64,000 bases of DNA from an uncultured Erysipelotrichaceae bacterium (GTDB taxonomy: Bacteria > Bacillota_I > Bacilli_A > RFN20 > CAG-826), in NCBI GenBank assembly GCA_902802905.1, contig CADCNT010000003.1:24354-88353 (forward strand), written 5' to 3'. How positions within the stretch are numbered: position 1 is the stretch's first letter; every line of letters starts with the position of its first letter. The notes below the pieces were generated by a model. The model had not been told where the DNA came from. It worked only from the letters and a program-made list of their open reading frames with translations, and did not search any database. A program made the position numbers and the translations under genes. Positions 1,809 to 52,532 of the stretch are shown in pieces.

Positions 1809-1836
1809 AGACCTGCATTGCAGGTCTTTCTTTTTT
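1809..1836 (+). terminator. Rho-independent terminator of valS
   Basis: Hairpin AGACCTGC-ATT-GCAGGTCT followed by TTCTTTTTT, 7 nt after the valS stop. Confidence 0.75.
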
Positions 1837-1842
1837 CTAATT

Positions 1843-1904
1843 CACTTTTGAAAAATTTTTTAGCAAATTTTGAAAAAAATCGCCTCTTTATTATATGAGG
1901 GGGG
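1843..1904 (+). promoter_or_regulatory. Conserved promoter-like element, copy A (partner at 52439-52499 on the minus strand)
   Basis: About 60 nt nearly identical to the reverse complement of 52439-52499, with a ~42-nt identical core. It contains TTTTGAAAAA twice at 22-bp spacing (1846-1855, 1868-1877), TTGAAA (1870-1875), a 16-nt spacer and TATATG (1892-1897). Confidence 0.5.
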
Positions 1905-1973
1905 AATTCTATCCTCGATTATTATTGGCATTGTGAAACTCCTTATAAATTCTCCCCTCAGGAGGTACAAAAA

Positions 1974-2156
1974 ATGAAATATGAATTACTTTCTGAACAA
2001 GAAATGGAAAATCAAGTTAGTGGTGAAGCCTTAACTTTAACCGCAGTGATGGCGGTACTTGCGACAGCGATTATTGCCGTCATTGTCTATCGTATGTTCA
2101 TGTCTGACAAAGGGAGCGCAACCGTTCCTGGTGGTTGGAAATTCTCTTGGAATTAA
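1974..2156 (+). CDS. Small membrane-active peptide/protein with a double-glycine-like leader (60 aa)
   Basis: Strong SD AGGAGG lies 8 nt upstream of the ATG. The N-terminus MKYELLSEQEMENQVSG resembles an LSxxELxxIxGG leader. It has one hydrophobic helix and a GGWKFSWN tail. Its stop overlaps the radC ATG (TAATG). Confidence 0.6.
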   Translation: MKYELLSEQEMENQVSGEALTLTAVMAVLATAIIAVIVYRMFMSDKGSATVPGGWKFSWN

Positions 2157-2833
2157 TGGGCATTATTAAATCATTGCCTACACTTGAGCGCCCACGCGAA
2201 AAGGCGCTCAGGTATGGTTTAGATGAATTGAGCGATTATGAACTATTAGCGATCCTTCTTGGCAGTGGTTATAAAGGGGAAAATGTCATGGAGCTCGCCT
2301 TTAGTTTACTAAGTAAATATGGGGGATTAGAAAATCTAACAAACATACCTTTTTCAGAACTAAAAAAGAACAAAGGAATTAAAAATGCGAAAGCGCTTAA
2401 TCTAGAAGCGATATTCGAATTTCATCGACGCTTACTATTTAAAAAGTATGAGCAAAATGATGAAATAATTGATGCAGAGTATTTATTTAATAAATACTTT
2501 CCTATATTTGGGAGAGCAAATCAGGAGCAAATTGTCATCGTTATTTTGTCTAAATATAAAAAGATAATTCATGAGTCAATTCTTTTCAAAGGCGGTGAAG
2601 ATGGGGTTCAGATTTCTCTTAGTGAGATTATTAAAGAAGTGATGTCTTATGGGGGCAAATATTTCTATCTGATTCATAACCATCCAAATGGCAGTCACGA
2701 GCCTAGTAAACAAGACACAATGGCCACTAGTTATCTCTTTGCTGAGAGTCGAAGAATGAAGATTCCAATGTTAGATCACATCATCATATCTATAAATGGG
2801 TATTATTCATTTAAAAAAATGAAAAAAACTTAG
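2156..2833 (+). CDS. radC: RadC-family JAB/MPN domain protein
   Basis: N-terminal LERPREKALRYG and an HNHPNGSHEPSKQD JAMM-like motif. The start is placed at ATG 2156 (MGIIKSL...), with an alternative in-frame ATG at 2135. Position between valS and rplU matches Bacillus. Confidence 0.85.
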   Translation: MGIIKSLPTLERPREKALRYGLDELSDYELLAILLGSGYKGENVMELAFSLLSKYGGLENLTNIPFSELKKNKGIKNAKALNLEAIFEFHRRLLFKKYEQNDEIIDAEYLFNKYFPIFGRANQEQIVIVILSKYKKIIHESILFKGGEDGVQISLSEIIKEVMSYGGKYFYLIHNHPNGSHEPSKQDTMATSYLFAESRRMKIPMLDHIIISINGYYSFKKMKKT

Positions 2834-2841
2834 ATTTCTTG

Positions 2842-2981
2842 TTGAACTATATTTATAACTTATGTTATATTACTCACGTTGTCGCCTCACTAGCTACAAC
2901 CGCCTAGAAAAGGTTTTATAAAAACCTATGGTTACCTTAATAGCGAGTCCTTAGTGAATTTTAAAAAGAAGGAGGGACATT
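2842..2981 (+). promoter_or_regulatory. rplU operon promoter plus ~100-nt structured leader (possible L21-leader type autoregulatory RNA)
   Basis: TTGAAC (2842-2847), 18-nt spacer, extended -10 TGtTATATT (2863-2871). The leader has a local hairpin AGGTTTT-ATA-AAAACCT and long-range TCACTA/TAGTGA complementarity. Firmicutes carry an L21 leader at this position. Confidence 0.4.
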
Positions 2982-3290
2982 ATGTACGCAATCATCGAAA
3001 CTGGTGGAAAACAAATTCGCGTAGAAGTCGGCGCTAAAATTTTCGTTGAAAAGTTAGACGCTGAAGTTGGTTCAACTGTCACCTTAGACAAAGTTCTCCT
3101 CGTTTGTGACAAAAAAGCAAAAGTCGGAACCCCTTATGTTAAAGGCGCAAATGTAGTTGCTAAAGTTGAAAAACAAGGTAAATCCAAAAAAATTCGTGTT
3201 TTCACCTATAAGAATAAGGCTAACGAAAAACGCTGCTTAGGCCATCGTCAACCTTATACATGTTTAGTCATTGAAAGCATTAACGCTTAA
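2982..3290 (+). CDS. rplU: 50S ribosomal protein bL21
   Basis: [17 protein letters not shown]... is a typical L21 N-terminus. SD GGAGGG lies upstream. Confidence 0.95.
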
Positions 3291-3298
3291 TTGTAACT

Positions 3299-3607
3299 AT
3301 GATTAAAGTAGTTATCAAAAGAGACGAATCCACTGACAAAATTACTTCAATAGAGGTTAAAGGTCACGCTCACAAAGATGCCTATGGCAAAGATCTAGTC
3401 TGTGCTGCTATAAGCGCCATCATGACTGGAGGAATGAACGCCTTAGTTGATAAAGATTATCGCTTCATTCTCGAGGAAGGTCATGCCCTAGTGGAAGCCC
3501 TAGATATCCCAAGTGATTATGACGCAGTTGTCTTAAAGACAATTGAGATTCAATTAAAAACCGTTGAAGAAGCTGAAAAGGATTTCGTCCAAGTCAAGAA
3601 TTTATAG
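3299..3607 (+). CDS. prp: Ribosomal-processing cysteine protease Prp (YsxB family)
   Basis: Sits between rplU and rpmA. GHAH...DLVCAAISA motif (His/Cys dyad). Confidence 0.85.
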
Positions 3608-3612
3608 AAAGG

Positions 3613-3909
3613 ATGAATCACATTATGATGTTTAAATTAAACTTACAACTCTTCGCTTCTAAAAAAGGTGTTGGTTCTACTAAAAACGGTCGTGACTCTG
3701 CTGGTCGTAGGTTAGGTGCTAAAGTTGCTGATGGTCAATGGTGCCATGCTGGTAGCATTATCTATCGTCAAAGAGGTACAAGAATCTATCCAGGAGAAAA
3801 TACCAAGAGAGGCAAAGATGACACAATCTTTGCAACCGCTAACGGTATTGTCAAATACGAACGTTTAGGTAAAGACCGCAAACAAGTGAGAGTTATTGCT
3901 GATAAATAA
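3613..3909 (+). CDS. rpmA: 50S ribosomal protein bL27 with N-terminal propeptide
   Basis: [23 protein letters not shown] matches the Firmicutes L27 propeptide and Prp cleavage site. The true start may be ATG 3625 or 3628 rather than 3613. Confidence 0.9.
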
Positions 3910-3932: not shown

Positions 3933-3961
3933 AGACCACATTAAATTGTGGTCTTTTTTTA
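3933..3961 (+). terminator. Rho-independent terminator of the rplU-prp-rpmA operon
   Basis: AGACCACA-TTAAAT-TGTGGTCT followed by a T7 run. Confidence 0.8.
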
Positions 3962-6101: not shown

Positions 6102-6653
6102 ATGATTTATTTTTTAAGAGGAGTTATCCATCAAGTTAATTCTGATAGCGTCATTATTGACGTAAGAGACGTCGGCTATGAAGTTTTAGTGTCCCATATT
6201 GATGCTTATGAAGTGGGACAAAATGTACTTTTATATACATATAATGTCGTTAGAGAAGACGAGAATTATTTAATCGGCTTCATGGACATCGAAGAAAGAA
6301 ATGTTTTCATGTCTTTAATAAAAGTCAAAGGTCTTGGACCAAAGACTGTGATTAATGCATTAAGTGCAACCACACCACAAGATGTGATTAACGCGATTAG
6401 TTCCAATAATGTCGCTTTCTTAAAGAAGCTTCCTGGACTTGGTGCTAAAGCTGCCGGACAAATCATTTTGGACTTAAAAGGTGAACTTACCGGTTCTAAG
6501 GGTAATCCAAAACAATATGAAGAAGTGTATGATGCTTTAAAATCTTTAGGTTTTAAAGGAGCGGCGATTGATCGTGTTTTAGCCACCATTAATGAGCCAA
6601 ATGCTTCTACTGAAGATATATTAAGAATCGCTTTAAGCAGGTTAAAGAAATAA
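6102..6653 (+). CDS. ruvA: Holliday junction DNA helicase subunit RuvA
   Basis: MIYFLRGVI... N-terminus and HhH motifs ([17 protein letters not shown]). Confidence 0.93.
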
Positions 6654-6654
6654 C

Positions 6655-7659
6655 ATGAGTAGATTATTAGATGCAAAGCCAGATAAAGAAGAACAACTAG
6701 ATAACTCGCTTAGACCTTTAACTCTAAAAGAGTATGTCGGACAAACAGATTTGAAAGAGAATCTGAAAGTTTTTATTGGGGCTGCGCTTCATAGAGAAGA
6801 GCCACTTGACCATGTTTTACTATATGGTCCTCCAGGATTAGGAAAGACCACATTAGCGCATGTCATCGCCCATGAAATGGGCACTAATATTAGAGTGGTC
6901 ACCGGTACCACAATTGAAAAAACCGGTGATTTAGCCGCGATATTATCAGAATTAGAGCCGGGTGATGTTCTTTTCATTGATGAAATTCATCGTTTACCAC
7001 GAGTGGTAGAAGAATCTTTGTACTCCGCAATGGAGGATTTTAGATTTGATATCATCATCAATAAAGACACTTCAAGCAAATCGCTAAGTATCAATTTACC
7101 ACCTTTCACTCTTATAGGCGCAACCACAAGAGCAGGTGATCTTAGCGCACCATTGCGTGCTCGATTCGGTATTGTCGAAAAGCTTAATTTCTACACAGTT
7201 GATGAAATCAAAGATATCGTCAAAAGAACCGCTCGTGTGTTAAATACGAAGATTGATGAAGAAGCAGAATTAGAGATTGCCAAACGTAGTAGAGGCACAC
7301 CAAGAATTGCTAATCGCTTATTTAAACGTGTGCGTGATTTTGCTAACTATCAACACCGCGACGATATTTCTTATAGTGATGCAATTAACGCTTTAAATGC
7401 ATTAAAAGTAGACTCTATCGGCTTAGATGATGTCGATATTCGTTACTTATTGACACTCATCAACCGTTTCAAAGGTGGACCAGTTGGTCTAGATACTTTA
7501 GCTAACGCCATCGGCGAAGAAATAATGAATTTAGAAGATGTTTATGAGCCATATTTATTACAGATCGGGTTCATAGATCGTACTCCTCGAGGTAGGGTGG
7601 CTCGAGAGAAAGCATATAAACACCTAAACATCACTCACCAAATTAGTTTGATTGATTAG
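6655..7659 (+). CDS. ruvB: Holliday junction DNA helicase RuvB
   Basis: [12 protein letters not shown] and Walker [12 protein letters not shown]; AAA+ RuvB layout. Confidence 0.96.
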
Positions 7660-15760: not shown

Positions 15761-17490
15761 AAAGAACCTGCTTCAACACAGAATTAAATGAAAAAAATGT
15801 CGGTCAAGAAGTGACCCTCATTGGTTGGGTTAGCAAGAAGAGAAATCTTGGCTCAATTGTCTTTATTGATTTACGTGATCGTAGTGGAATTATCCAAATC
15901 ACAGTCAATGAAGGAGTAGAAATTCCAGATATTCGTAACGAATATGTTATCTCAGTTACTGGTAAGGTTTCTCTAAAAGAGAAAGAGAACGTCAATTTAA
16001 AGACTGGTAAGATTGAAGTTGTCGCTAGCGAAATTAAAGTAATTAATACCGCGAAGACCACACCTTTAATCATTGCCGATGAAACCGACGCTCTTGAAGA
16101 TACAAGATTAAAGTATCGTTATCTTGATTTAAGAAGACCGATTATGCAATCTTACTTAGATGTTCGTCACCAAATCAAAATGGCAGTTCATGAATATCTT
16201 TCAAAAGAGCACTTCATAGAAGTGGAGACTCCTATTTTAACTCTTTCTACACCTGAAGGCGCACGTGACTATTTGGTTCCAAGTAGAGTGCATCACGGGA
16301 AATTCTATGCGCTGCCACAATCCCCACAAATCTTTAAGCAACTCTTAATGATCGGTGGCGTGGAAAGATATTATCAAATCGCTCGTTGCTTTAGAGATGA
16401 AGACTTAAGAGCGGACAGGCAACCAGATTTCACACAAATTGATATTGAAACCAGTTTCCTTGATCAAGATCAATTCCTCACTATGATGGAAGGATTAATC
16501 AAAGAAATATTTAAAAAAACTATCAACTATGATGTGAAGCTACCATTAAGAAGACTTCCATATAAAGAAGCCATGGATAATTATGGTAGCGATAAGCCAG
16601 ATACAAGATTTGATATCAAACTTCAAGATGTCAAAGACATCTTCTCCAAGAGTGAGTTTGGTGGTTTTAAAGATGTAGAAACCATTAAGGCTATTGTCGT
16701 CAACGGCGTTGCTGAACAAACCAGCAGAAAAGTTATTGATACATTAACTTTAGAAGCTAAGAAATTCGGTTTAGGTGGTTTAAGCGTGCTTAAGTATGAA
16801 GCTGATGAATTTACCGGATCATTCGTTAAATTCCTTTCTGAGGAAGAAAAAGCAGCTTTAAAAGCTAAATTGAACGTGAAGAACGATGACATAGTCATTA
16901 TCGCTGCCGGCAAATACAACCGTGTATGCCCACTTTTAGGCGCATTAAGACTAAGATATGGTAAAGAGCTAGGTTTAATTAAACCTAACACATTCGATTT
17001 ACTCTGGGTAGTTGATTTCCCACTCTTTGAAAGAGATGTGGAAAATGGGGCAATCACTTCTACGCATCACCCATTCACACGTCCAAGAGACGAAGATCTC
17101 AAATATTTAGATAGTGACCCAACAAGAATTTTAAGTTATGCTTATGATATAGTCATAAATGGTTATGAAGCTGGTGGTGGTTCGTTAAGAATTTACAATC
17201 AAGATGTCCAAAAGAAGATTTTTTCAGTGCTCGGCTTGAGCGATGAAGATATCAAGAGAAAATTTGGATTCTTTGTCGATGCATTCCAATATGGAACTCC
17301 TCCTCATGCAGGTATGGCCTTTGGCTTAGATAGATTAACCATGATTCTTGGTGGAACCGACAATATTAGAGATGTTATTGCCTTCCCTAAGAACCTTGCC
17401 GCAGTCTGTCCAATGTCCTTAGCTCCAAATGCGGTTGATGAAGCGCAATTACAAGAGTTAGGAATAGCGGTTACAGATTACGAAAAATAG
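15757..17490 (+). CDS. aspS: Aspartate--tRNA ligase
   Basis: CFRDEDLRADRQPDFTQIDIE and GLDRL motifs. Its start overlaps the hisS stop (ATGA). Confidence 0.96.
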   Translation: MKRTCFNTELNEKNVGQEVTLIGWVSKKRNLGSIVFIDLRDRSGIIQITVNEGVEIPDIRNEYVISVTGKVSLKEKENVNLKTGKIEVVASEIKVINTAKTTPLIIADETDALEDTRLKYRYLDLRRPIMQSYLDVRHQIKMAVHEYLSKEHFIEVETPILTLSTPEGARDYLVPSRVHHGKFYALPQSPQIFKQLLMIGGVERYYQIARCFRDEDLRADRQPDFTQIDIETSFLDQDQFLTMMEGLIKEIFKKTINYDVKLPLRRLPYKEAMDNYGSDKPDTRFDIKLQDVKDIFSKSEFGGFKDVETIKAIVVNGVAEQTSRKVIDTLTLEAKKFGLGGLSVLKYEADEFTGSFVKFLSEEEKAALKAKLNVKNDDIVIIAAGKYNRVCPLLGALRLRYGKELGLIKPNTFDLLWVVDFPLFERDVENGAITSTHHPFTRPRDEDLKYLDSDPTRILSYAYDIVINGYEAGGGSLRIYNQDVQKKIFSVLGLSDEDIKRKFGFFVDAFQYGTPPHAGMAFGLDRLTMILGGTDNIRDVIAFPKNLAAVCPMSLAPNAVDEAQLQELGIAVTDYEK

Positions 17491-23304: not shown

Positions 23305-24486
23305 ATGGCAAAAGTTATTGTTCATATTGACTTAAACGCGTTTTTTGTTAGAGCGGAAGAAATTCGTAATCCGGATTTAGAAAACAAAGCTGTCGCTATC
23401 GGGCATTTAGGTAGAGGCGGTATTGTTTCCACTTGCTCTTATGAAGCACGTAAATTTGGGGTGAGAAGTGGAATGCCAATGAATAAAGCGGTGAAGCTAT
23501 GCCCACATTTACTCATTGTTCCACCTGATTATCGTTTTTATATCACCTTGTCACATGAATTCAAAAAATACATCCGCCATATTACTCCGAAAGTAGAATC
23601 CGCTTCCATCGATGAGCTTTTCGCTGACTTTACTGATGTGGTCAAAGGTAAAAGAAATGTTGAGACTTATTTTAGAGAAATCCAGGCTGGATTATATAAA
23701 AAGACCAAACTTAAATGTTCAATTGGTGTTGGGCCTACTAAGTTTTTAGCTAAGATGGCAAGTGATTATCGTAAGCCAATGGGTTTAACCATTATCAGAA
23801 GAAAAGATATTGAAGAGATTTTATATCCTTTACCAATCGAGGATATGTTTGGTGTTGGCAAGAAAAGCGCTCCGAGATTAAGACATATTGGTATTAACAC
23901 AATTGGTGATTTAGCTAAGAAATTAAATGATAATGACCCTACAACCCTTTCCTTGTTAGGAAAAGGAGCAGAAGAGCTCCATAAATGGCTTAAGGGTTAT
24001 GGCTCTGATGAGATTATCACTGAGTATGACGATCCAAAATCAATCGGTAACTCAACTACTTTGGTAAAGGACACATCAGAATATGAGTACATTAAGCAAA
24101 CATTTGAGATTCTTGCTGAAGAAGTATCAATGCGCGCTAAAAAGGAATCGATGATTGGTAGCACTATTCAAATCATGGTAAAAGACACTAATTATCAAGC
24201 ACATAATAAGTCAGTGGCGATTAATCCACCCACAAATAACGCCAAAGATATTTTTACTACTGCCATAAAACTATATGAGAAGAACTATCTCGATATGACC
24301 ATTAGAGCGGTGGGAGTGACTTTACAAAACTTAATTAACATCAAAGATGTTGCTGTGCAAATGACTTTCTTTGATTACGAGATGCACGAAGAAGAAAACA
24401 AAACCAAACTCATCATTAACGAAATCAATCGTAAAATCAAAGGAGCGCCGCTAAAAAGAGCGAGTGAAATCAAAAAGAAATGCTAA
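23305..24486 (+). CDS. dinB: DNA polymerase IV (Y-family)
   Basis: HIDLNAFFVRAEE and SIDELF catalytic motifs; little-finger domain. Confidence 0.92.
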   Translation: MAKVIVHIDLNAFFVRAEEIRNPDLENKAVAIGHLGRGGIVSTCSYEARKFGVRSGMPMNKAVKLCPHLLIVPPDYRFYITLSHEFKKYIRHITPKVESASIDELFADFTDVVKGKRNVETYFREIQAGLYKKTKLKCSIGVGPTKFLAKMASDYRKPMGLTIIRRKDIEEILYPLPIEDMFGVGKKSAPRLRHIGINTIGDLAKKLNDNDPTTLSLLGKGAEELHKWLKGYGSDEIITEYDDPKSIGNSTTLVKDTSEYEYIKQTFEILAEEVSMRAKKESMIGSTIQIMVKDTNYQAHNKSVAINPPTNNAKDIFTTAIKLYEKNYLDMTIRAVGVTLQNLINIKDVAVQMTFFDYEMHEEENKTKLIINEINRKIKGAPLKRASEIKKKC

Positions 24487-25361
24487 TTAATGACGCCGTG
24501 GAATTATTTGCACAATATTTGCTAGTAGAAAAAGGTCTGTCCAAGAAAACGGTGGAAGCCTATCTAGCAGATCTCAAGCAGTTTTTCGCTTACTATAAAG
24601 ACAAGCAAGAAGTTAGTGATTTAAGTCCATATGATTTACAGTCCTTTGTGATTTATGGCTCTAGCATTGGAGTAACACCTGCAACCACATTAAGAAGAGC
24701 GTCTTCTATTAAACAGTTTTATCTCTTTCTAAAGAAAGATGGATATTATGAGGACGAGATTCCTGATATTGAAAGTATTAAAAAACCAAAGCATTTACCA
24801 ACATGTATTTCTGTTGAAGAAGTTGAGGCATTATTGAACGCTCCAAACATGAAATCGTTAAGTGGAATTAGAGATCGCGCTATGCTGGAACTCATGTATG
24901 CAAGCGGACTCCGTGTTAGTGAACTATTAGCGTTAGAACTTGGTAACATCAATCTTAAAAGAGGAATTGTTACTGTATTTGGTAAAGGGGCCAAGGAAAG
25001 AAAAGTACCGATTGGAGACTACGCTTTAGAATATGTAATCAAATATCTAAATGAAGTTAGAGATAAATTCAATGGAAGAAACTCTAAATATCTTTTCTTA
25101 AATAGAAAAGGAAAGCCAATTAGTCGTATATATTTCTTTAAACAAATTAAGAAGTATGCAAAAGAAGTGGGAATTATGGAAGAGATTTCCCCACACACTC
25201 TTAGACACTGCTTTGCTACCCACTTATTAGAAGGTGGAGCGCAGCTAAGAACTGTGCAAGGAATGCTTGGTCACAGCAACATTGCAACTACACAAATCTA
25301 CACTCATGTATCTAGAGAAAGAATTGCCAGTGCATATGATTTGTTAATGAATAAAAAATAG
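24480..25361 (+). CDS. xerD: Tyrosine recombinase XerD/XerC type
   Basis: HTLRHCFATHLL...GHSNIATTQIYTHV catalytic R-H-R-Y motifs. Position upstream of deoB matches Bacillus ripX-drm. Confidence 0.88.
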   Translation: MLINDAVELFAQYLLVEKGLSKKTVEAYLADLKQFFAYYKDKQEVSDLSPYDLQSFVIYGSSIGVTPATTLRRASSIKQFYLFLKKDGYYEDEIPDIESIKKPKHLPTCISVEEVEALLNAPNMKSLSGIRDRAMLELMYASGLRVSELLALELGNINLKRGIVTVFGKGAKERKVPIGDYALEYVIKYLNEVRDKFNGRNSKYLFLNRKGKPISRIYFFKQIKKYAKEVGIMEEISPHTLRHCFATHLLEGGAQLRTVQGMLGHSNIATTQIYTHVSRERIASAYDLLMNKK

Positions 25362-25388
25362 TATATTATTTTTATCGAGGTAAAAAAT

Positions 25389-26606
25389 ATGTCATATCCA
25401 TACAAAAGAATCTTTGTTGTGGTGGCCGATTCAGCAGGAATTGGTTATGAACCAGACGCAGATAAATTTTTCAATGCCGGACATACTGACTGGGGTAGTA
25501 ATACCTTTGTCCATATCGCCGAGAAAATGCCTAATGGATTAAATATTCCAAACATGGAAGCTATTGGTATTGCTGATTTAGCGGATATCCGTGGCACTAA
25601 AAAAGTGAGTCACCCACATTCATTCGTTGCTCGCGCTAGAGAAGTTAGTAATGGCAAAGACACCATGACTGGTCACTGGGAAATGATGGGTATAAATACC
25701 CAAGTTCCATTTAAAACCTTTACTGATACCGGATTCCCAAAAGAATTAATGGATGAATTAGAAAAAAGAACTGGTCATAAATTAATCGGTAACTGTGCTG
25801 CTAGTGGTACCGAAATTATCAAAGAATTAGGTGAAGAACAAATTAGAGATAACTCCTTAATTATTTATACATCTAGCGACTCTGTTTTACAGATTGCCGC
25901 TAGCGAAGAAGTCACAGGCTTACAAGAATTATATCGTTGCTGCGAAATCGCTAGAGAAATATGTATGAAGCCAGAATGGATGGTGGGAAGAGTTATCGCT
26001 CGCCCGTACGTTGGTAAAACTCCTGAAACATTCAAAAGAACATCCAATAGACACGATTTGGCTTTAAAGCCAACTCATCCAACTGCGATGAATGTTTTAC
26101 AAGATAACGGCTTTATGACAAGCTGCGTTGGTAAGATTGGTGATATCTTTGATGGATATGGCGTCGAAAAAACCCAAAAGACCGTTTCTAATGAAGACGG
26201 GATGGATAAAACCATTGATGAATTATTGCATCACGATTTCACTGGTATGTGCTTTGTTAACTTAGTGGAATTCGATAGTGAATACGGCCATAGAAGAGAT
26301 CCAATTGGATATGGTGAGGCTCTTGAAAGATTTGACAAGAGAGTTGGCGAATTCATGTCTAAAATGAGAGATGATGATTTATTAATCATCACCGCCGACC
26401 ACGGTAACGATCCAACCTGGCCAGGAACCGATCACACTAGAGAAAAGATTCCTCTACTTATGTACTCACCAAGTATTAAAAACGGTAGATATTTAGAAGA
26501 AAGAGAATGCTTCGGTGATATCGGCGCAACAGTACTTGAAAACTTCAACTTAAAGTTGCCAAATAATCTAGTTGGCAAACCAATGGTGGAAGTCTTAAAG
26601 AAATAA
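25389..26606 (+). CDS. deoB: Phosphopentomutase
   Basis: VVADSAGIG and TADHGNDPT metal-site motifs; ~405 aa. Confidence 0.93.
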   Translation: MSYPYKRIFVVVADSAGIGYEPDADKFFNAGHTDWGSNTFVHIAEKMPNGLNIPNMEAIGIADLADIRGTKKVSHPHSFVARAREVSNGKDTMTGHWEMMGINTQVPFKTFTDTGFPKELMDELEKRTGHKLIGNCAASGTEIIKELGEEQIRDNSLIIYTSSDSVLQIAASEEVTGLQELYRCCEIAREICMKPEWMVGRVIARPYVGKTPETFKRTSNRHDLALKPTHPTAMNVLQDNGFMTSCVGKIGDIFDGYGVEKTQKTVSNEDGMDKTIDELLHHDFTGMCFVNLVEFDSEYGHRRDPIGYGEALERFDKRVGEFMSKMRDDDLLIITADHGNDPTWPGTDHTREKIPLLMYSPSIKNGRYLEERECFGDIGATVLENFNLKLPNNLVGKPMVEVLKK

Positions 26607-26611
26607 CAAAC

Positions 26612-26647
26612 AAAAAAAGAAGCTTGGGCTAATTGCTCAAGCTTTTT
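26612..26647. terminator. Bidirectional terminator between convergent deoB and the ABC permease gene
   Basis: A-run, then AAGCTTGGGC-TAATT-GCTCAAGCTT, then a T-run. It overlaps the last codons of the permease gene. Confidence 0.7.
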
Positions 26648-27414
26648 AAATCGATGTGAAATGCTTTCTTTATTATCCAAATAATTAAAGAAACAATAAG
26701 CATTACCAAGATGGCGATAAAAGCATAAGCAAAAGTGGAGATTAATCCATTGGTCTGATTAGAGAAAGCAACGCTTATTGCTCTACCTAAGCCGTATGAT
26801 TCACTACTGGAAGTTAGTGCTTCCGCCATAATCTCTATCTTAAATGATAGAGCAAAGCTAGTAGTGAGGCCAACAGCGATATAAGGCATGCTTAATGGCA
26901 ATTTAACTTTGAAGTTGTTTCTGAATGCATTAGGGCTGTCTACACGCATTGCCATAATTACATATTTATCGATGTTTTGATAACCGCTTACTGTGGCTTC
27001 ATAGACCATTGGGAAAACGATAATCATCACAATATATAAAGAAGCGTTCTTAAAACCAACAAGCACTAAAAGAAGGAACACAAGCGCAGCAGTAGGTACG
27101 CTTCTTAAGGCAATCATTGTTGGATTAAAGACATATTTCATCTTCGTGAAATTACCAACAAGCATTCCTAAAGCAATTCCTAGAATTGAAGCTACGGAAA
27201 AGCCTATTAACATACGATATAAAGAACCCCATATACACTTGTATAAGTATGGCTTTCCGAAGTAGGAGAAGGCCTCTTTTATAACGCTGATTGGATCTGG
27301 AAAAATATAAATACTGCTACCCGCTAATATAAATATTAGATACCATAGCAAAAAGAAGAAAATGATTCCTAAAATAGTTAGCGTATAACGATTAATAATA
27401 TACTTCTTCATCAA
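26629..27414 (-). CDS. ABC transporter permease (NitT/TauT/SsuC-like family)
   Basis: About six TM helices. The LRSVPTAALVFLLLVLVG segment resembles the conserved TauC/SsuC-type loop. It overlaps the upstream binding-protein gene by 23 nt. Confidence 0.8.
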   Translation of the reverse strand: MMKKYIINRYTLTILGIIFFFLLWYLIFILAGSSIYIFPDPISVIKEAFSYFGKPYLYKCIWGSLYRMLIGFSVASILGIALGMLVGNFTKMKYVFNPTMIALRSVPTAALVFLLLVLVGFKNASLYIVMIIVFPMVYEATVSGYQNIDKYVIMAMRVDSPNAFRNNFKVKLPLSMPYIAVGLTTSFALSFKIEIMAEALTSSSESYGLGRAISVAFSNQTNGLISTFAYAFIAILVMLIVSLIIWIIKKAFHIDLKSLSN

Positions 27415-28330: not shown

Positions 28331-28343
28331 TTTTTTATCCTCG

Positions 28344-28372: not shown

Positions 28373-28375
28373 AAA

Positions 28376-28391: not shown

Positions 28392-28394
28392 AAA

Positions 28395-48705: not shown

Positions 48706-49422
48706 TTATTTTAATAAAAGATCAAAAGTTCTTAGATTCACGCCTATAGTGTTATCAACAAACTCTTTTAATTTTTTCAAAATTAATTTCTTATCTTCAA
48801 GTGAATAATTCTCGATTTTAAGACATGAATAATCTGGTGATTTAAAGATATATCTAATTAATTTCATCTGCGATTTTGCTAAATCACGCACAATTCCATC
48901 ACGCATACAATTTGTGCAAACAAACCCACCATTTTCAAAAGAGAATGTGGCAATGCTCGTTGTGCCTCCACAGAATACGCAATGATCAACTTCAAACTCT
49001 ACACCACTAAATTTCAATAATCTACTTAAGTAGATTAAGACAACCATGTAGCAGTCTTTACCATTCTTCAGTGCCTTGATTGCTGCTAATAAATCGTTAA
49101 ACGCTAAATGCTTTTCTTCGTCTTGTAAAACGTTATTGGAAATCTCAATTAGTGCGTTTACCGCTGCTAAATATTCCAAGGTATAGTCGTTATTCAATGC
49201 AAAAGCTACCGGCATGGCGTTTTTTAATAAACTATGTTTATAGCGGCCATCTTCCATAAACTCAACATCCGCAATTGTTAATGGGTTGTTGAGCCAAATA
49301 AATTTTCCTTTAGGATCTTGCGCTCCTTTTGCTTGAAAGGAAATAAATCCATCTTTACTGATTGCATTAAAAATGCAGTCTTTTTCTTTATACTTGCTGA
49401 CTGATAGTATAATAACTTTCAT
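48706..49422 (-). CDS. recO: DNA repair protein RecO
   Basis: N-terminal OB fold and a C-terminal zinc motif (CVFCGG...CTNC). It lies downstream of era, as in Bacillus. Confidence 0.85.
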   Translation of the reverse strand: MKVIILSVSKYKEKDCIFNAISKDGFISFQAKGAQDPKGKFIWLNNPLTIADVEFMEDGRYKHSLLKNAMPVAFALNNDYTLEYLAAVNALIEISNNVLQDEEKHLAFNDLLAAIKALKNGKDCYMVVLIYLSRLLKFSGVEFEVDHCVFCGGTTSIATFSFENGGFVCTNCMRDGIVRDLAKSQMKLIRYIFKSPDYSCLKIENYSLEDKKLILKKLKEFVDNTIGVNLRTFDLLLK

Positions 49423-49424
49423 TT

Positions 49425-50312
49425 TTACTTCTTTTTGATTTTATATCCGTATGCTTCTAAAGAAGCTTCGTCGTTTCGCCAATCTTCTTTGACTTTCACA
49501 AACAATTCTAAGAAGACGTGCTTTCCTAATAGTTTTTCAATACTATTACGTGATTTTTGGCCAATCTCTTTAATCATTTTGCCGCCTTTTCCAATCACTA
49601 TTCCCTTCTGGGAATCTTTCTCAACAATAATTGAGGCGACGATGTGGATTGGTTTGGCTTCCCAGTCAATGCTATTAATGTAAATAGCAATACTATGTGG
49701 GACTTCATCTCTTAAGATTTTGAGTGCCTTTTCTCTAATAATTTCTTTGATTTGGAAAATCTCATCCTTGTCAGTGATTTCTTCACCAGGATAATATTCT
49801 GGGCCCTCTGGCAAGAGTTCTTCCACCATTTTGATCAATAAGTCTAAATTGAATCTTTCGCTCGCTACAGTGTCAATAAAATGGCTTTCTGGGAGTTTTT
49901 CATGATAGATTGCCTTTAACTTTTCTACTTTATCAAGTCGAGCTTGGTCAATTTTATTAAATACGATGATTAAAGGGGCATTTTTAATATCAAGATGTTG
50001 CAAAAGATATTCGTCCCCTTCTCCAAATGGTTTAGAAGCATCGACCACTAAAATATTCACATCCGCATCATGTGCAGAGGAATAAGCCATGTTATTCATT
50101 TCCTCGCCAAGTTTAGCGTGAGGTTTATGAATACCAGGAGTGTCGATGAAAATAATCTGTGAATTCTCACCGCGATAAATGCCTTTAATCACATTACGAG
50201 TGGTTTGGCTTTTATCGGTGACAATGGAGATTTTTCTATTGATAATGCCATTTAAAATGGTAGATTTGCCAACGTTTGGATGACCTAAGATGGTAACAAA
50301 CCCGGATTTCAT
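49425..50312 (-). CDS. era: GTPase Era
   Basis: GHPNVGKSTILN, DTPG, NKID and a C-terminal KH domain. Confidence 0.95.
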   Translation of the reverse strand: MKSGFVTILGHPNVGKSTILNGIINRKISIVTDKSQTTRNVIKGIYRGENSQIIFIDTPGIHKPHAKLGEEMNNMAYSSAHDADVNILVVDASKPFGEGDEYLLQHLDIKNAPLIIVFNKIDQARLDKVEKLKAIYHEKLPESHFIDTVASERFNLDLLIKMVEELLPEGPEYYPGEEITDKDEIFQIKEIIREKALKILRDEVPHSIAIYINSIDWEAKPIHIVASIIVEKDSQKGIVIGKGGKMIKEIGQKSRNSIEKLLGKHVFLELFVKVKEDWRNDEASLEAYGYKIKKK

Positions 50313-50713
50313 TACTTTAAGTCATCTCCTGAGAAAGCAAAGGGGAGAAGTTCGTCAATATTAGTCTCTTGCTCGTCCCCTTTCAAATTGCTCATATAAA
50401 TTGGAGCTTTGCGAGGAAATAATTCACTTATCACTTGACGACATGCTCCGCATGGAGAACATGGTTGGTCAGTGTCTGCTGATAAGGCTAAAGCGACAAA
50501 GTCATCTTTTTTATAACCATGCATCATCGCGTTGTATAATGCATTTCTTTCTGCGCACATGCATAGAGGATAGGAAGAATTTTCGATGTTTGCCCCAACG
50601 AAAACTTGTCCATCCTTTGTTAATACAGCCGCTCCGACTGCGAAATGGCTATAGGGAGAATAAGATAACGCTCTTGCTTCTTTAGCTTTAATAATCAGTT
50701 CTTTTTTGTCCAT
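50312..50713 (-). CDS. cdd: Cytidine deaminase
   Basis: CAERNA and PCGACRQ zinc motifs; 133 aa. Confidence 0.93.
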   Translation of the reverse strand: MDKKELIIKAKEARALSYSPYSHFAVGAAVLTKDGQVFVGANIENSSYPLCMCAERNALYNAMMHGYKKDDFVALALSADTDQPCSPCGACRQVISELFPRKAPIYMSNLKGDEQETNIDELLPFAFSGDDLK

Positions 50714-50716
50714 GAG

Positions 50717-51172
50717 TTATATTCCTTTCGCTGATAAGATTTCATCTTGTAAACTAAACATTATTTTTTCATCTTCTTCTTTCATGTGATCAAACCCTAG
50801 TAAATGAAGCAACCCATGAATGAAGAGAAATGATAATTCCCGGTGGAGACTATGTCCATATTCTTCAGCTTGCTCTTTTGCTTTATCAATTGAGATATAA
50901 ATATCTCCTAAAACAACAACACCTGGGGAAGAAAGTATTTTATCATAGTTTCCTTCCGCGTCAACAAAAGCAAAGCTGATGACATCAGTTGGGCGATCAA
51001 TACCGCGGTACTTCTTATTGATTTTATGGATGTATTTGTTGTCCACAAAGGAAACAGAAACAATTGGATCACACTTAATGTCCAACCTTTTAAGCGTGAA
51101 CGCCATTAAATCTAAATAATGTTCTTCGTATTGATCGAATTCCGGAAATTTTGAATTAAAATCTAATTCCAT
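50717..51172 (-). CDS. ybeY: rRNA maturation endoribonuclease YbeY
   Basis: HGLLHLLGFDH metal-binding motif; 151 aa. Confidence 0.93.
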   Translation of the reverse strand: MELDFNSKFPEFDQYEEHYLDLMAFTLKRLDIKCDPIVSVSFVDNKYIHKINKKYRGIDRPTDVISFAFVDAEGNYDKILSSPGVVVLGDIYISIDKAKEQAEEYGHSLHRELSFLFIHGLLHLLGFDHMKEEDEKIMFSLQDEILSAKGI

Positions 51173-51199: not shown

Positions 51200-52417
51200 T
51201 CATACTATTGAATTGTTACTCACATTTAAATCGAGGCAATGGAGTAGTTTCACTAATTGGTTGTCGAAGTCCTCGCTCTGCGAAGAACATTCGAGCAAAC
51301 GGATGAAATTATCTTTAAGATAAACTGATATACAAAGATAAAAGACAACATAAATCACACTGACGACATGAGATAGAGACATGATGGTAACCGCTGACAT
51401 CAATAAAACGGCAACTTCAATGTAAGAGAAAGTGTTTCTAAATAAACCTAACTGATACGCCGCGTCATGAGTGTTATTCACTACTGCGCGAAATTGAAAT
51501 TGATTGGCTACTGTCTTGATTTTTAGTTCTTCTTCTGCGAGTTCATTGCTCTTTCTTTTATGATAAGGAAGATAAACATAGACATGAATAATGGCTAAAA
51601 CTAGTGCTAAAAGCACATAGATAACATTAATTGCCCCATTCATGACTAAAAGCACTGTCATAAAGATAGAAACTAAAGCCGCATAGATGAAATTAGGAAT
51701 CGTCGACAATGCCACGTAGCGGTATTTTTCTTCAACTTTATAAAATTCGTATAGCTCGCTAGGTTCTACGGTGATTTTATAGTTGAAAATGTTGTCATCC
51801 ATTCTTTTTAAAGCATTAATCAAACCTTTACGAAATATAATTTCGAAGATGAAGAATAACGCAAAGAGAATGATCGGAACGAAGAAATAGGAGCTGGAAT
51901 TAATGAAATAGACAGCAAGCAAAAGTGAAACTCCACTAGCGAGCTGCCAGATAGGAAGAGCGACCTTGTCTTTCTTGCTGATGAAATCAATGGGCTCAAA
52001 ATCACATTCTACGTGCACGTATTCTTGCTCTTTTTCAATAATTAACGCCCGTAAATCCCATTGTTCATATAAAGTATCCAATGGAATCCTTCTTTTTCCA
52101 ACTTCTGGATCATAAACTTTGACATATTTTTTAGTTGCTTTAAGCAAAAGAACACTATGTCTAATTCCTTTGCCTTTATCAAGAGTTATCATAAATGGAA
52201 ATTCTTTACTTCCAATTAACTCCTGCACACTTTTGATTTTGATGCCTAATGTGTTCATATGATATTTTGAAGCAATATCTTTGAGTTCTTTAAAACTGTA
52301 GGCATCTTTCTTTCCGGGTAAGAAAAGATAATTCTTGTCGTGATGATAATTAGCCAACATCATCTTTAGACAAGCAAAGGCACAATCATGTTGGCCGACT
52401 TGAGATATAAAATACAT
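51200..52417 (-). CDS. Peptidase C39 (bacteriocin-processing type) domain fused to a multi-pass membrane domain, with no ABC ATPase domain
   Basis: The N-terminal ~130 aa carry the full C39 signature: Q6/Q9, C12 in GQHDCAFACLKMML, H87 in IRHSVLLL, D103 in VYDPEVG. About 5-6 TM helices follow. The protein ends at 405 aa without Walker motifs. Strong SD AAGGAGG. Confidence 0.75.
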   Translation of the reverse strand: MYFISQVGQHDCAFACLKMMLANYHHDKNYLFLPGKKDAYSFKELKDIASKYHMNTLGIKIKSVQELIGSKEFPFMITLDKGKGIRHSVLLLKATKKYVKVYDPEVGKRRIPLDTLYEQWDLRALIIEKEQEYVHVECDFEPIDFISKKDKVALPIWQLASGVSLLLAVYFINSSSYFFVPIILFALFFIFEIIFRKGLINALKRMDDNIFNYKITVEPSELYEFYKVEEKYRYVALSTIPNFIYAALVSIFMTVLLVMNGAINVIYVLLALVLAIIHVYVYLPYHKRKSNELAEEELKIKTVANQFQFRAVVNNTHDAAYQLGLFRNTFSYIEVAVLLMSAVTIMSLSHVVSVIYVVFYLCISVYLKDNFIRLLECSSQSEDFDNQLVKLLHCLDLNVSNNSIV

Positions 52418-52438
52418 TTGACCTCCTTTGTAGAGTAT

Positions 52439-52499
52439 CCCCTACATATAATAAAGAGGCGATTTTTTTCAAAATTTGCTAAAAAAATTTTCGAAAGTG
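52439..52499 (-). promoter_or_regulatory. Conserved promoter-like element, copy B (partner at 1843-1904)
   Basis: The reverse complement reads CACTTTCGAAAATTTTTTTAGCAAATTTTGAAAAAAATCGCCTCTTTATTATATGTAGGGG. This has 2 substitutions over the first 57 nt relative to copy A. Confidence 0.5.
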
Positions 52500-52504
52500 A
52501 TGTT

Positions 52505-52532
52505 AGTAAAAGAAAAGACCCATTAGGGTCTT
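52505..52532 (-). terminator. Rho-independent terminator of the hrcA-grpE-dnaK-dnaJ operon
   Basis: Minus strand: AAGACCC-TAAT-GGGTCTT followed by TTCTTTT. The hairpin overlaps the dnaJ stop. Confidence 0.7.

What the first reader, a model, noticed from the sequence alone, without database searches (positions are those of the whole stretch)
1843..1904. Near-identical ~60-bp promoter-like element precedes two unlinked genes: the leader-peptide gene and the C39-peptidase gene (partner copy at 52439-52499)
Seen in sequence: 1843-1904 (+) and the reverse complement of 52439-52499 align base for base as CACTTT(T/C)GAAAA(A/T)TTTTTTAGCAAATTTTGAAAAAAATCGCCTCTTTATTATATG, followed by a G run. The identical core is about 42 nt. 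I did not find this sequence in any other intergenic region of the window.

The local layout is the same at both sites. First comes the terminator of a housekeeping gene (valS, dnaJ) with the shared outer stem AGACC...GGTCT, then the element, a short leader, a strong SD, and the gene.

Inside the element the 10-mer TTTTGAAAAA occurs twice with a 22-bp start-to-start distance (1846-1855 and 1868-1877). In copy B the left unit is TTTCGAAAAT. The right unit overlaps a TTGAAA -35-like hexamer, and only a weak -10 (TATATG) follows 16 nt later.

Established knowledge: 9-10-bp direct repeats separated by about 12 bp next to a poor core promoter are the known binding architecture of LytTR response regulators (ComE, PlnC/D, AgrA). 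These regulators drive double-glycine peptide, bacteriocin and competence operons.

Inference: the 60-aa peptide gene (with radC) and the C39/TMD gene form one co-regulated module despite lying 50 kb apart on opposite strands. No candidate kinase or response regulator is present in this window.
Basis: partly seen in the sequence, partly recalled or inferred. Interest (0 to 1): 0.8.

Follow-up and report, generated by a model that had tools for sequence, protein, structure and literature searches.

The report
Co-evolving shared promoter, small regulon
The two near-identical 60-bp stretches are real and are most likely copies of one unusual promoter that an uncultured, mycoplasma-like gut bacterium places in front of a handful of scattered genes, including a small membrane peptide and the protease that probably cuts it; the copies stay alike within a genome while changing between species.

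Summary
Observation confirmed: 1856-1897(+) and 52445-52486(-) are an exact 42-nt match (58/60 over the finding's span), none expected by chance, and no third copy in the window. In two related species the same two orthologous sites (valS|peptide-radC and dnaJ|C39) again carry near-identical elements, but with a species-specific sequence. In one relative (MAG RGIG9216) five copies exist. The other three precede a 257-aa unknown protein and two tiny hydrophobic peptides. Each copy ends exactly where a 5'-terminal hairpin begins. That hairpin covaries in the peptide leader and runs up to the SD, so the element is untranscribed promoter DNA with the start site at its 3' edge.

The conserved core (C-rich block, TnAnTAnATG, then (T)AGGG) fits no sigma-70 -10 register, nor the sigma-20 or ComX boxes. 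The 22-bp-spaced direct repeat that suggested a LytTR regulator is perfect only at window site A and is not conserved.

Best reading: a non-canonical promoter of a small dispersed regulon, read by an unidentified dedicated factor, linking a double-glycine-like membrane peptide to an NBD-less PCAT-type peptidase. The co-regulation idea is supported; the LytTR/quorum-sensing mechanism is not. It is a new variant of a known kind, of moderate interest.

The parts
1809..1827 (+). valS intrinsic terminator (AGACC...GGTCT + T run), immediately upstream of copy A
   Evidence: the same terminator shape also occurs at 3933-3954 and 52515-52532, so it is generic
1843..1897 (+). Element copy A: untranscribed promoter. 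It has an A/T-tract upstream half (1843-1879), a C-rich block (1881-1886) and the AT-rich block TTTATTATATG (1887-1897). The exact 42-nt core is 1856-1897.
1897..1959 (+). 5'-terminal closing hairpin of the peptide leader. The left arm GAGGGGGGAATT (1897-1908) pairs with AATTCTCCCCTC (1948-1959). The inferred transcription start is at or next to 1897.
   Evidence: 94.5% of cells paired, 5 pairs with changes on both sides, 0/500 shuffles reach the score
1960..1965 (+). Shine-Dalgarno AGGAGG of the peptide gene, directly after the hairpin
1974..2156 (+). 60-aa peptide: variable leader (residues 1-15), invariant S16-G17, then a highly conserved TM helix and C-terminal PGGWKFSWN
2156..2833 (+). 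radC, start overlapping the peptide stop (TAATG), so it is co-transcribed and probably translationally coupled
52515..52532 (-). dnaJ intrinsic terminator, immediately upstream of copy B
52445..52499 (-). Element copy B (reverse complement of copy A); the exact 42-nt core is 52445-52486
52430..52445 (-). 5'-terminal hairpin GTAGGGGATACTCTAC of the C39 leader, whose first base is the last base of the element; the SD AGGAGG follows at 52427-52422
   Evidence: the same hairpin is present in L001 and L003; in L005 the arms GTAGG/CCTAC are complementary but the MFE fold differs; L011 has a 5-bp GTAGG/CCTAC version
51200..52417 (-). C39 peptidase + exporter-type transmembrane domain, with no nucleotide-binding domain (an NBD-less PCAT-like protein)
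48706..51172 (-). ybeY-cdd-era-recO, following the C39 gene after a 27-nt gap with no terminator; probably also fed by copy B

Best explanation
The element is the promoter of a small, dispersed regulon in an uncultured, low-GC, Mollicutes-like 'Bacilli bacterium' lineage from ruminant and animal guts.

Shown:
1. It lies between the terminator of the upstream housekeeping gene and the first base of a 5'-terminal hairpin. That hairpin covaries in the peptide leader and ends at the SD. The element is therefore not part of the mRNA, and transcription starts at or next to its last base (about 1897 on + and 52445 on -).
2. Across ten species variants the conserved part is the proximal ~20 nt plus the first transcribed bases. 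It consists of a C-rich block at -16..-14, then T(-10) n A(-8) n T(-6) A(-5) n A(-3) T(-2) G(-1), then (T)AGGG. Upstream of this lie variable phased A/T tracts of UP-element type.
3. No register of this block gives both the A2 and T6 of a sigma-70 -10 hexamer. The same organism has textbook sigma-A promoters elsewhere.
4. The copies in one genome are nearly identical over 30-55 nt, while orthologous copies diverge between species.

Inferred:
- The promoter is read by a dedicated factor (most likely an alternative sigma factor or a promoter-specific activator). Either this factor's specificity co-evolves with the sites, or the sites are homogenised by gene conversion.
- The factor co-expresses the double-glycine-like membrane peptide (with radC), the NBD-less PCAT-type peptidase that probably removes its leader after S16-G17, and, in at least one relative, an unknown 257-aa protein and two tiny hydrophobic peptides.
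- The 5' hairpin next to the SD probably stabilises these mRNAs.
For: - Exact 42-nt match, two copies only, none expected by chance.
- Both sites are syntenic in all relatives examined: valS-peptide-radC-rplU and dnaK-dnaJ-C39-ybeY-cdd-era-recO.
- Within-genome pairs score 65, 46 and 46 in local alignment. Across genomes the C39-site comparisons score 19-28, below every within-genome pair; the peptide-site scores of 33-40 come from alignments that run on through the terminator and the 5' UTR. Over the 33-nt core, window and species 2 differ at 12 positions, while the two copies inside each genome differ at 0-1.
- MAG RGIG9216 (JAGBLE01) has five copies with an identical 27-28-nt core (AATTTTCTTCCTCTATTTATTAAATG, preceded by C in four of the five) plus (T)AGGGG. 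Each lies upstream of and oriented towards an SD and start codon, 36-44 nt away for the C39 and 257-aa genes and about 72-130 nt for the peptide and the tiny peptides.
- The ortholog of the 257-aa gene in another species carries its own variant of the element.
- 5' hairpins start at the element's last G in most units (9 of 11 C39 and other units in the MFE folds, 8 of 9 peptide leaders). The peptide-leader stem covaries.
- The sigma-70 consensus scan does not call the element, while hrcA has TTGACA-16-TATAAT. The position table shows no register with both A2 and T6.
- There is no room for another promoter between the terminator and the element.
- The peptide has a variable leader and a conserved mature part. 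The C39 catalytic residues are conserved and the fold is PCAT1-like.
Against: - No transcription data exist; the start site and promoter activity are inferred from structure only.
- No candidate factor was found. The window holds only RpoD, HrcA and one Crp/Fnr-like protein, and the rest of the genome could not be read.
- Additional copies in the window's own genome are unknown. Neither genome scan returned any contig of the window's species, and one metagenome scan found only one further valS-peptide site.
- ybeY and era, housekeeping genes, appear to depend on copy B. This argues for substantial constitutive activity rather than tight induction.
- Identity across the whole spacer is more than sigma recognition needs. 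Part of the similarity may therefore reflect gene conversion rather than function.
Confidence: 0.7

Rival explanations
1. One reading: a LytTR response regulator (ComE/PlnC-D/AgrA type) binds two 10-bp direct repeats 22 bp apart. It induces a quorum-sensing-type double-glycine peptide and its C39 processing protein.
For: - Window site A has a perfect TTTTGAAAAA repeat at 22-bp phasing (1/500 shuffles).
- The core promoter is poor by sigma-70 rules.
- The gene pair (double-glycine-like peptide + C39 peptidase) matches the usual cargo of such regulons.
Against: - The repeat is 8/10 at site B. In the other species the best phased repeats mostly do no better than shuffles (two reach 16-19 of 500) and their positions differ.
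- What is conserved is the proximal -20..+5 block, not the distal half.
- The right repeat sits at about -30..-21, inside the core promoter.
- The mature peptide is 70-95% conserved across the lineage, unlike pheromones or bacteriocins.
- There is no kinase or LytTR gene in the window.
- Regulon members in RGIG9216 include non-peptide and non-double-glycine genes.
Confidence: 0.06
2. Ordinary constitutive promoter cassette: the element is a strong but odd-looking sigma-A promoter (UP-like A/T tracts, TTGAAA-16-TATATG) with no dedicated regulator. The copies stay alike only through gene conversion or repeated promoter reuse.
For: - Phased A/T tracts and a TTGAAA hexamer are present in the window clade.
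- The housekeeping genes ybeY-era-recO follow C39 without a terminator.
- Identity covers spacer positions that a sigma factor would not read.
- Reuse of near-identical promoters before unrelated genes is documented in prokaryotes (PMC3575422).
Against: - The -35-like hexamer is not conserved and its position shifts by 6 nt in species 3 and L005.
- The invariant bases (T-10, A-8, T-6, T-2, G-1, then AGGG) fit no sigma-70 -10 register.
- The element marks the same orthologous genes in several species, which indicates a maintained gene set.
- Only 2 copies occur in 64 kb, and 5 were detected in a MAG.
Confidence: 0.17
3. The element is transcribed and acts at the RNA level, as a shared 5'-UTR motif bound by an sRNA or protein, with the real promoter further upstream.
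For: CCTCT...AGGGG within the element could form a weak 5-bp hairpin (sequence).
Against: - Terminators end 10-15 nt before the element, leaving no room for a promoter.
- That pairing is not maintained in species 2 (CCGTTC / GAGGGG).
- The covarying RNA structure starts only at the last base of the element.
- Rfam finds nothing there.
Confidence: 0.05
4. Dispersed repeat or mobile element remnant (MITE/REP-like), or a recombination site pair, with no regulatory meaning. The two inverted copies lie about 25 kb either side of the replication terminus and could mediate a symmetric inversion.
For: - The copies are inverted relative to each other and nearly symmetric about the GC-skew maximum and strand switch at about 27-28 kb.
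- There are multiple copies in RGIG9216.
Against: - Every copy is oriented towards, and 36-130 nt upstream of, an SD and start codon.
- The sites are orthologous across species.
- All nine distinct C39 loci have dnaJ upstream (eight called by Pfam; in L006 the upstream gene was not looked up). All peptide loci that reach far enough upstream have valS there. No inversion product is seen.
- There are no terminal inverted repeats or target duplications.
- There is no match in IMG/VR.
Confidence: 0.03

Closest known systems
Mycoplasma genitalium sigma-20 (MG428) regulon (Torres-Puig et al., PMC4446450 and PMC6105099)
   Same: - It is a Mollicutes regulon of scattered transcription units marked by one non-canonical promoter.
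- Members include an ABC transporter annotated for peptide secretion (MG_390, with MG_389), several small proteins of unknown function and recombination genes.
- Here the marked units include a PCAT-type peptidase (followed by recO), a small peptide with radC, and tiny peptides.
- The promoter sequence differs between related species (M. genitalium TTGTCA/ATTWAT versus M. pneumoniae TTGGCR/ATTYAT).
   Different: - The consensus TTGTCA-N18/19-ATTWAT is absent from the window.
- In M. genitalium only the two hexamers are conserved and the spacer can be scrambled. Here the whole 30-55 nt is identical within a genome.
- No -35 element is conserved here.
- ruvAB in the window (6102-7659) carry no element.
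- Presence of an MG428 homolog could not be tested.
ComE/ComX competence circuit of streptococci and class II bacteriocin regulons (comC-comAB, plnABCD), controlled by LytTR regulators
   Same: - A double-glycine-type peptide and a C39 peptidase-exporter sit at separate loci under one shared promoter motif.
- radC is a late competence gene in S. pneumoniae (own knowledge).
   Different: - The direct-repeat architecture is not conserved.
- There is no cin-box.
- The peptide is a highly conserved membrane protein rather than a fast-evolving pheromone or bacteriocin.
- The C39 protein lacks the ATPase domain.
Phage-type (T7/T3/SP6) single-subunit RNA polymerase promoters
   Same: - They are compact promoters abutting the start site, nearly identical in all copies of one genome and different between relatives.
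- A specificity block is followed by an AT-rich melting block and a G-run at the start of the transcript.
   Different: This is a resemblance of architecture only. No such polymerase gene was seen or could be searched for, the pattern has no match in IMG/VR, and the AT-rich block is longer than in T7-type promoters.
Promoter reuse / putative mobile promoters in prokaryotes (PMC3575422)
   Same: Near-identical upstream regions sit in front of non-homologous genes within one genome.
   Different: Here the sites are orthologous across species and the sequence changes in concert. This is an old, maintained set rather than a recent spread.
5'-terminal stem-loop mRNA stabilisers of Firmicutes (e.g. 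aprE and ermC leaders; own knowledge)
   Same: A hairpin starting at or within a few nt of the 5' end is followed directly by a strong SD.
   Different: This concerns only the transcribed part downstream of the element. Stabilisation was not tested.

Membership tests
LytTR-regulated promoter (ComE, PlnC/D, AgrA type) | Two 9-10-bp direct repeats with 21-22-bp phasing | tested here: inconclusive
   Perfect 10/10 at window site A (1/500 shuffles) but 8/10 at site B (97/500)
LytTR-regulated promoter (ComE, PlnC/D, AgrA type) | The repeats are conserved at all promoters of the regulon and in related species | tested here: not met
   In species 2 and most other variants the best 19-24-bp-phased 10-mers reach 6-8/10 and do no better than shuffles. 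Two copies (sp3_pep, L005) reach 9/10 (16-19 of 500 shuffles), but at 19-20-bp phasing and different positions. The conserved block is proximal.
LytTR-regulated promoter (ComE, PlnC/D, AgrA type) | The repeats lie upstream of the -35 region | tested here: not met
   The right repeat 1868-1877 lies 20-29 nt from the inferred start at 1897
LytTR-regulated promoter (ComE, PlnC/D, AgrA type) | A cognate histidine kinase and LytTR response regulator are encoded in the genome, usually next to the peptide | not testable with these tools
   None in the 64-kb window; the rest of the genome is not available
Housekeeping sigma-70/sigma-A promoter | TTGACA-like -35, 16-18-nt spacer, TATAAT-like -10 with A at position 2 and T at position 6 | tested here: not met
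   Not called by the consensus scan, whereas hrcA (57231-57204) and glyS promoters are. No register of the conserved block has both A2 and T6 across variants.
Sigma-20 (MG428) promoter of M. genitalium / M. pneumoniae | TTGTCA-N18/19-ATTWAT (or TTGGCR-N18/19-ATTYAT) | tested here: not met
   0 matches for the M. genitalium consensus TTGTCA-N18/19-ATTWAT in the window (the M. pneumoniae variant was not scanned); consensus taken from PMC4446450
ComX/sigma-X late competence promoter | cin-box TACGAATA about 10 nt upstream of the start | tested here: not met
   The single match in the window is at 15930-15937, inside aspS, and not at either site
Dispersed repeat / MITE / REP element | Many copies placed without regard to gene starts, with terminal inverted repeats or target duplications | tested here: not met
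   2 copies in 64 kb. The 5 copies in RGIG9216 all point at an SD and start codon. The sites are orthologous. There is no IMG/VR match.
Peptidase-containing ABC transporter (PCAT), for gene 51200-52417 | N-terminal C39 peptidase with catalytic Gln/Cys/His/Asp | tested here: met
   PF03412 E 2.8e-16. H87 and D103 are invariant and Q6 and C12 are at least 90% conserved in 70 homologs. The domain aligns to the ComA and LahT-type peptidase domains.
Peptidase-containing ABC transporter (PCAT), for gene 51200-52417 | Exporter-type six-helix transmembrane domain | tested here: met
   Model pLDDT 87.7. Foldseek top hits are PCAT1 6v9z/4ry2, E 9e-14 to 2e-10, TM-score 0.59-0.64 on the query.
Peptidase-containing ABC transporter (PCAT), for gene 51200-52417 | C-terminal nucleotide-binding domain | tested here: not met
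   The protein ends at residue 405 after the last helix. Nearly all full-length homologs are 393-434 aa (a few shorter ones are likely fragments) and carry only PF03412. The next gene is ybeY.
Double-glycine leader peptide, for gene 1974-2156 | 15-18-aa leader ending in GG/GA/GS, with hydrophobic residues at -4, -7, -12, -15 and Glu at -8 | tested here: inconclusive
   With cleavage after the invariant S16-G17, the residues are Y(-15), L(-12), E(-8) and M/L(-7). However, -2 is Ser and -4 is polar. The leader is variable and the mature part is conserved. No family model matches.
Phage-type single-subunit RNA polymerase promoter | A cognate T7-like RNA polymerase gene (PF00940) in the same genome | not testable with these tools
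   The genome is not available; only the architectural resemblance was noted

The most novel reading that the evidence does not exclude
The element is read by a factor with an unusually long, start-site-abutting recognition sequence, about 25-30 nt from a C-rich block to the initiating G-run. This could be a highly specific minimal sigma, or even a chromosomally domesticated phage-type polymerase. The factor's specificity drifts between species while all of its promoters follow in lockstep. It would then form a private transcription channel in a reduced genome, co-expressing an NBD-less PCAT peptidase, its conserved double-glycine-like membrane peptide, radC and toxin-like mini-peptides.
Probability: 0.1. 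Interest if true: 0.85.

Novelty: new variant of a known kind. Interest (0 to 1): 0.55.

Why it matters
Regulon-specific promoters are well known. This one has three features worth attention:
- Every copy in a genome is identical over 30-55 nt, while orthologous copies diverge. That pattern is seen in phage polymerase promoters but is unusual for chromosomal regulons.
- It fits no described sigma or regulator consensus, in a lineage that cannot yet be cultured.
- It gives the first functional link between two lineage-specific orphan genes: a strongly conserved 60-aa double-glycine-like membrane peptide and a PCAT-type peptidase that has lost its ATPase.

If confirmed, the motif is a ready-made handle for defining a regulon and finding its regulator in reduced, Mollicutes-like gut bacteria from metagenomes alone. 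The closest experimental parallel, the M. genitalium sigma-20 regulon, controls recombination and gene transfer, so this regulon may govern a similar switch.

Tried and rejected
- **First degenerate pattern.** The 34-nt version found nothing in the GTDB representative genomes. It found one contig in the JGI metagenomes, another valS-peptide-radC site. Extra copies in the window's own species therefore remain unknown.
- **Looser second pattern.** The 24-nt pattern gave 26 loci:
  - Five are real copies in MAG RGIG9216.
  - Five lie in identical copies of a repeat in an Intestinibacillus chromosome.
  - Two are in Candidatus Pelethenecus, before duplicated genes.
  - Fourteen are single hits in unrelated phyla, close to my hand estimate of about a dozen chance hits. 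These were set aside.
- **Viral contigs.** The same pattern has no match in IMG/VR.
- **Pairing attempt.** Peptide contigs for P0125 and P0128 could not be assigned to the species of the C39 contigs L001 and L003. Their elements differ, so they added variants but no further pairs.
- **Rfam.** It finds only the L21 leader in the window, and only tRNAs in the RGIG9216 loci.
- **The 257-aa regulon member.** It has no Pfam, NCBIfam or PDB sequence match. Its upstream neighbour, considered as a possible small sigma, is a four-helix membrane protein.
- **Other promoter and binding-site types, rejected by eye.**
  - Sigma-54: only L005 has a TGGCA-like stretch, and it lacks the GC.
  - CIRCE: only the TTAGCA half is present, and it is not conserved.
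  - Bacteroidetes-type TAnnTTTG.
  - A small ORF starting at the ATG inside the element: in copy B it is followed directly by TAG.
- **Window versus RGIG9216.** No homologs of the extra RGIG9216 regulon members occur in the window.
Full report
**1. The observation**

Both sites were read directly and aligned. The + strand at 1842-1897 and the - strand at 52500-52445 read TCACTTT[T/C]GAAAA[A/T]TTTTTTAGCAAATTTTGAAAAAAATCGCCTCTTTATTATATG.
- The 42-nt core (1856-1897 / 52445-52486) is identical. It occurs exactly twice in the window at up to three mismatches, with none found in 100 shuffles.
- A profile HMM built later from 13 related elements finds only these two places (E 1e-13 and 1.5e-12; next best E 0.48).
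- The AGACC...GGTCTTTT terminator shape is generic. A third one follows rpmA at 3933-3954 without any element.

**2. Context**

The window is a housekeeping stretch of a low-GC (about 36%) genome.
- Left half, on the + strand: valS, the 60-aa peptide, radC, L21 leader-rplU-ysxB-rpmA, obg, nadE, ruvAB, recJ, relA, hisS, aspS, and so on.
- Right half, on the - strand: lepA, hemN-like, hrcA-grpE-dnaK-dnaJ, the C39 gene, ybeY-cdd-era-recO, glyS, dnaG, rpoD, and so on.
- Gene orientation converges, and the cumulative GC skew peaks, near 27-28 kb, so the replication terminus lies inside the window.
- The only regulators found are RpoD, HrcA and one Crp/Fnr-like protein. There is no kinase, response regulator or extra sigma factor.

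**3. The two genes**

The peptide (1974-2156):
- It has a variable 15-residue leader, an invariant S16-G17, then a strongly conserved transmembrane helix and a PGGWKFSWN tail.
- Homologs are 70-95% identical across a lineage in which the C39 protein drops to 40-60%.
- Its stop codon overlaps the radC start (TAATG).

The 405-aa protein (51200-52417):
- It has a Pfam C39 domain (E 2.8e-16).
- H87 and D103 are invariant, and Q6 and C12 are at least 90% conserved, in 70 homologs.
- A confident AlphaFold model (pLDDT 87.7) has PCAT1 as its best structural matches, covering the peptidase and the transmembrane domain (E 9e-14, TM-score 0.62-0.64). The protein ends without a nucleotide-binding domain.

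Both genes sit at the same syntenic positions in every relative examined.

**4. Related genomes: the key result**

Species 2 is represented by contigs L010 and L011; both proteins are also recorded on a 427,403-nt contig. Species 3 is MAG RGIG9216 (GCA_017635565.1, water deer rumen). In each, the two orthologous upstream regions are again nearly identical to each other, but with a sequence that differs from the window's:
- Species 2: ...AAATTTTCAGAAAACT[G/T]CCGTTCTAAATAAGTG(T)AGGGG
- Species 3...AATTTTCTTCCTCTATTTATTAAATGAGGGG

Local alignment scores are 65, 46 and 46 within genomes. Across genomes the C39-site comparisons score 19-28, below every within-genome pair; the peptide-site scores (33-40) come from alignments that also take in the terminator and the 5' UTR. 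Over the 33-nt core, window and species 2 differ at 12 positions, whereas the two copies inside each genome differ at 0-1. The two sites therefore change in concert.

**5. More copies**

- A degenerate pattern covering the window clade found nothing in the GTDB representative genomes. It found one further valS-peptide site in JGI metagenomes.
- A looser pattern found five copies in RGIG9216.
  - Two are the peptide and C39 sites.
  - One precedes a 257-aa protein with no detectable family.
  - Two precede paralogous 27-aa hydrophobic peptides (MEKAILLLLILCILVYMIKKSPSDNNR). Each has a ~130-nt structured leader and its own terminator, a layout reminiscent of type I toxins.
- All five share an identical 27-28-nt core plus (T)AGGGG.
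- The ortholog of the 257-aa gene in yet another species (L057) carries its own variant...CCACCTACTTAAGTATATGAGGGACC.
- The remaining hits of that scan are chance matches or unrelated repeats. There is no match in viral contigs.

The element thus marks a small regulon, not just one gene pair, and membership is at least partly conserved.

**6. Where transcription starts**

- In most of the transcription units, the base at the 3' edge of the shared element (the G of ...ATG) is the first base of a hairpin whose other arm ends just before the SD.
- In the peptide leader this closing stem is 9-18 bp long and covaries between species: GGAATT/AATTCT, TGA/TCA, CCAAAC/GTTTGG, ACAAA/TTTGT.
- On seven distinct sequences, 94.5% of cells pair and five pairs change on both sides. 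No shuffle out of 500 reaches the observed covariation score, and slid registers fall to 52-68% paired.
- These bases are therefore in the RNA, while sequence similarity between the two loci stops there.
- Upstream, the terminators of valS and dnaJ end 10-15 nt before the element, leaving no room for another promoter.

The element is therefore the promoter, and the start lies at or next to 1897 and 52445. The start site is inferred, not measured.

**7. What kind of promoter**

Ten distinct variants were aligned at the TG anchor.
- Invariant: T-29, T-10, A-8, T-6, T-2, G-1.
- Near-invariant: A-5, A-3, T-11, T-13 and C at -16..-14. (T)AGGG follows.
- The upstream half consists of A/T tracts with roughly 11-nt phasing. 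Its sequence, and even its distance (a 6-nt shift in species 3 and L005), vary.
- No register of the AT-rich block gives both the A2 and T6 of a sigma-70 -10 hexamer.
- The consensus scan does not call the element, although it finds TTGACA-16-TATAAT before hrcA and TTGACA-17-TATACT before glyS.
- The sigma-20 consensus of M. genitalium and the ComX cin-box are absent.

I conclude that a dedicated factor is likely, but its identity is unknown.

**8. The LytTR reading**

- The 10-mer repeat at 22 bp is perfect only at window site A (1/500 shuffles) and 8/10 at site B.
- In the other species the best 19-24-bp-phased 10-mers are mostly no better than shuffles and lie at different positions.
- The right repeat lies inside the core promoter.
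- The peptide is far too conserved for a pheromone or bacteriocin.
- At least three of the five regulon members in RGIG9216 are not double-glycine peptides.

This mechanism is therefore not supported. The co-regulation inference that it was meant to explain is supported.

**9. Why the copies stay identical**

This is the unexplained part. Sigma recognition alone would let spacer positions drift independently, as in the M. genitalium sigma-20 promoters, where scrambling the spacer has no effect. There are three possibilities:
- recognition of a long sequence by a factor whose specificity drifts, as in phage polymerases;
- gene conversion among the copies;
- both of these together.

In the window the two copies are inverted and lie about 25 kb either side of the terminus, so recombination between them would give a tolerated symmetric inversion. 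No inversion product was seen: dnaJ precedes the C39 gene at every distinct locus where the upstream gene could be identified (eight of nine), and valS precedes every peptide locus that reaches far enough upstream.

**10. Caveats**

- ybeY, cdd, era and recO follow the C39 gene without a terminator or a detected internal promoter. Copy B is therefore probably active during normal growth. This favours a constitutive or growth-linked regulon over a tightly induced one.
- The regulon in the window's own genome beyond these two sites is unknown.

**11. Verdict**

- The closest experimentally known system is the sigma-20 regulon of M. genitalium, which likewise includes a putative peptide-secretion ABC transporter gene (MG_390), small proteins and recombination genes. 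The promoter here fails that family's defining consensus.
- I rate it a new variant of a known kind, with interest 0.55.

Noticed in passing
window 51200-52417 (-): The gene encodes a PCAT-type protein (active-looking C39 peptidase plus exporter transmembrane domain, predicted fold matching PCAT1) that lacks any nucleotide-binding domain. It is conserved as a ~400-aa protein between dnaJ and ybeY across the whole lineage. How a PCAT works without its ATPase, or whether a separate ATPase partners it, is open.
   Followed up: partly
window 1974-2156 (+): The mature part of the 60-aa peptide is 70-95% identical across species whose C39 protein is only 40-60% identical. Only the leader varies. This is the reverse of what bacteriocins and pheromones show, and it suggests a structural membrane role. 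The stop codon overlaps the radC start (TAATG).
   Followed up: partly
window about 24480-29000: The replication terminus appears to lie inside the window. The cumulative GC skew peaks near 28 kb, gene orientation switches from + to - at 26.6 kb, and a XerC/D-type recombinase gene sits at 24480-25361. The two element copies are inverted and nearly symmetric about this point (midpoint 27.2 kb).
   Followed up: partly
L031 1860-2083 (-) and L044 1440-1662 (-), MAG RGIG9216: Two paralogous loci have the same layout: the shared promoter, a ~130-nt highly structured leader, a 27-aa hydrophobic peptide (MEKAILLLLILCILVYMIKKSPSDNNR) and a strong terminator. The layout resembles type I toxin genes. 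L044 has a second copy of the terminator module about 120 nt further on.
   Followed up: partly
L043 4869-5642 (+) and L057 about 3035-3816 (+): This is a 257-271-aa protein family (47 clusters) with no Pfam, NCBIfam or PDB sequence match. In two species it lies behind the shared promoter and next to a conserved four-helix membrane protein gene.
   Followed up: partly
window 3933-3954 (+), 1809-1827 (+), 52515-52532 (-): Three terminators share the outer stem AGACC...GGTCT followed by a T run, which looks like a house style of terminators in this genome.
   Followed up: no
window 2888-2961 (+): An Rfam L21 leader (RF00559, 40.9 bits) lies upstream of rplU, with its own TTGAAC-18-TATATT promoter at 2842-2871. 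The radC unit and the ribosomal protein operon are therefore separate.
   Followed up: no
window 58650-60089 (-) and 27392-28330 (-): ORFs of 479 aa and 312 aa have no Pfam match even at E 0.01. The first sits between the hemN-like gene and lepA.
   Followed up: no
L032, L034, L036, L041, L054 (OY760624.1, Intestinibacillus sp.): Five loci on this chromosome share identical sequence over the ~220 nt inspected around the pattern match, probably an insertion sequence. It matched the search pattern by chance and is unrelated to the element.
   Followed up: no
L040 1653-1676 (+) and L042 5086-5109 (-) (JBGVFV010000108.1, Candidatus Pelethenecus sp., Mollicutes incertae sedis): Two duplicated genes on one contig are preceded by TTTGTCTATTTATTATATGAAGGG, which resembles the proximal core of the element. 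There is no 5' hairpin. It is unclear whether this is a distant member of the same promoter class or chance plus gene duplication.
   Followed up: no
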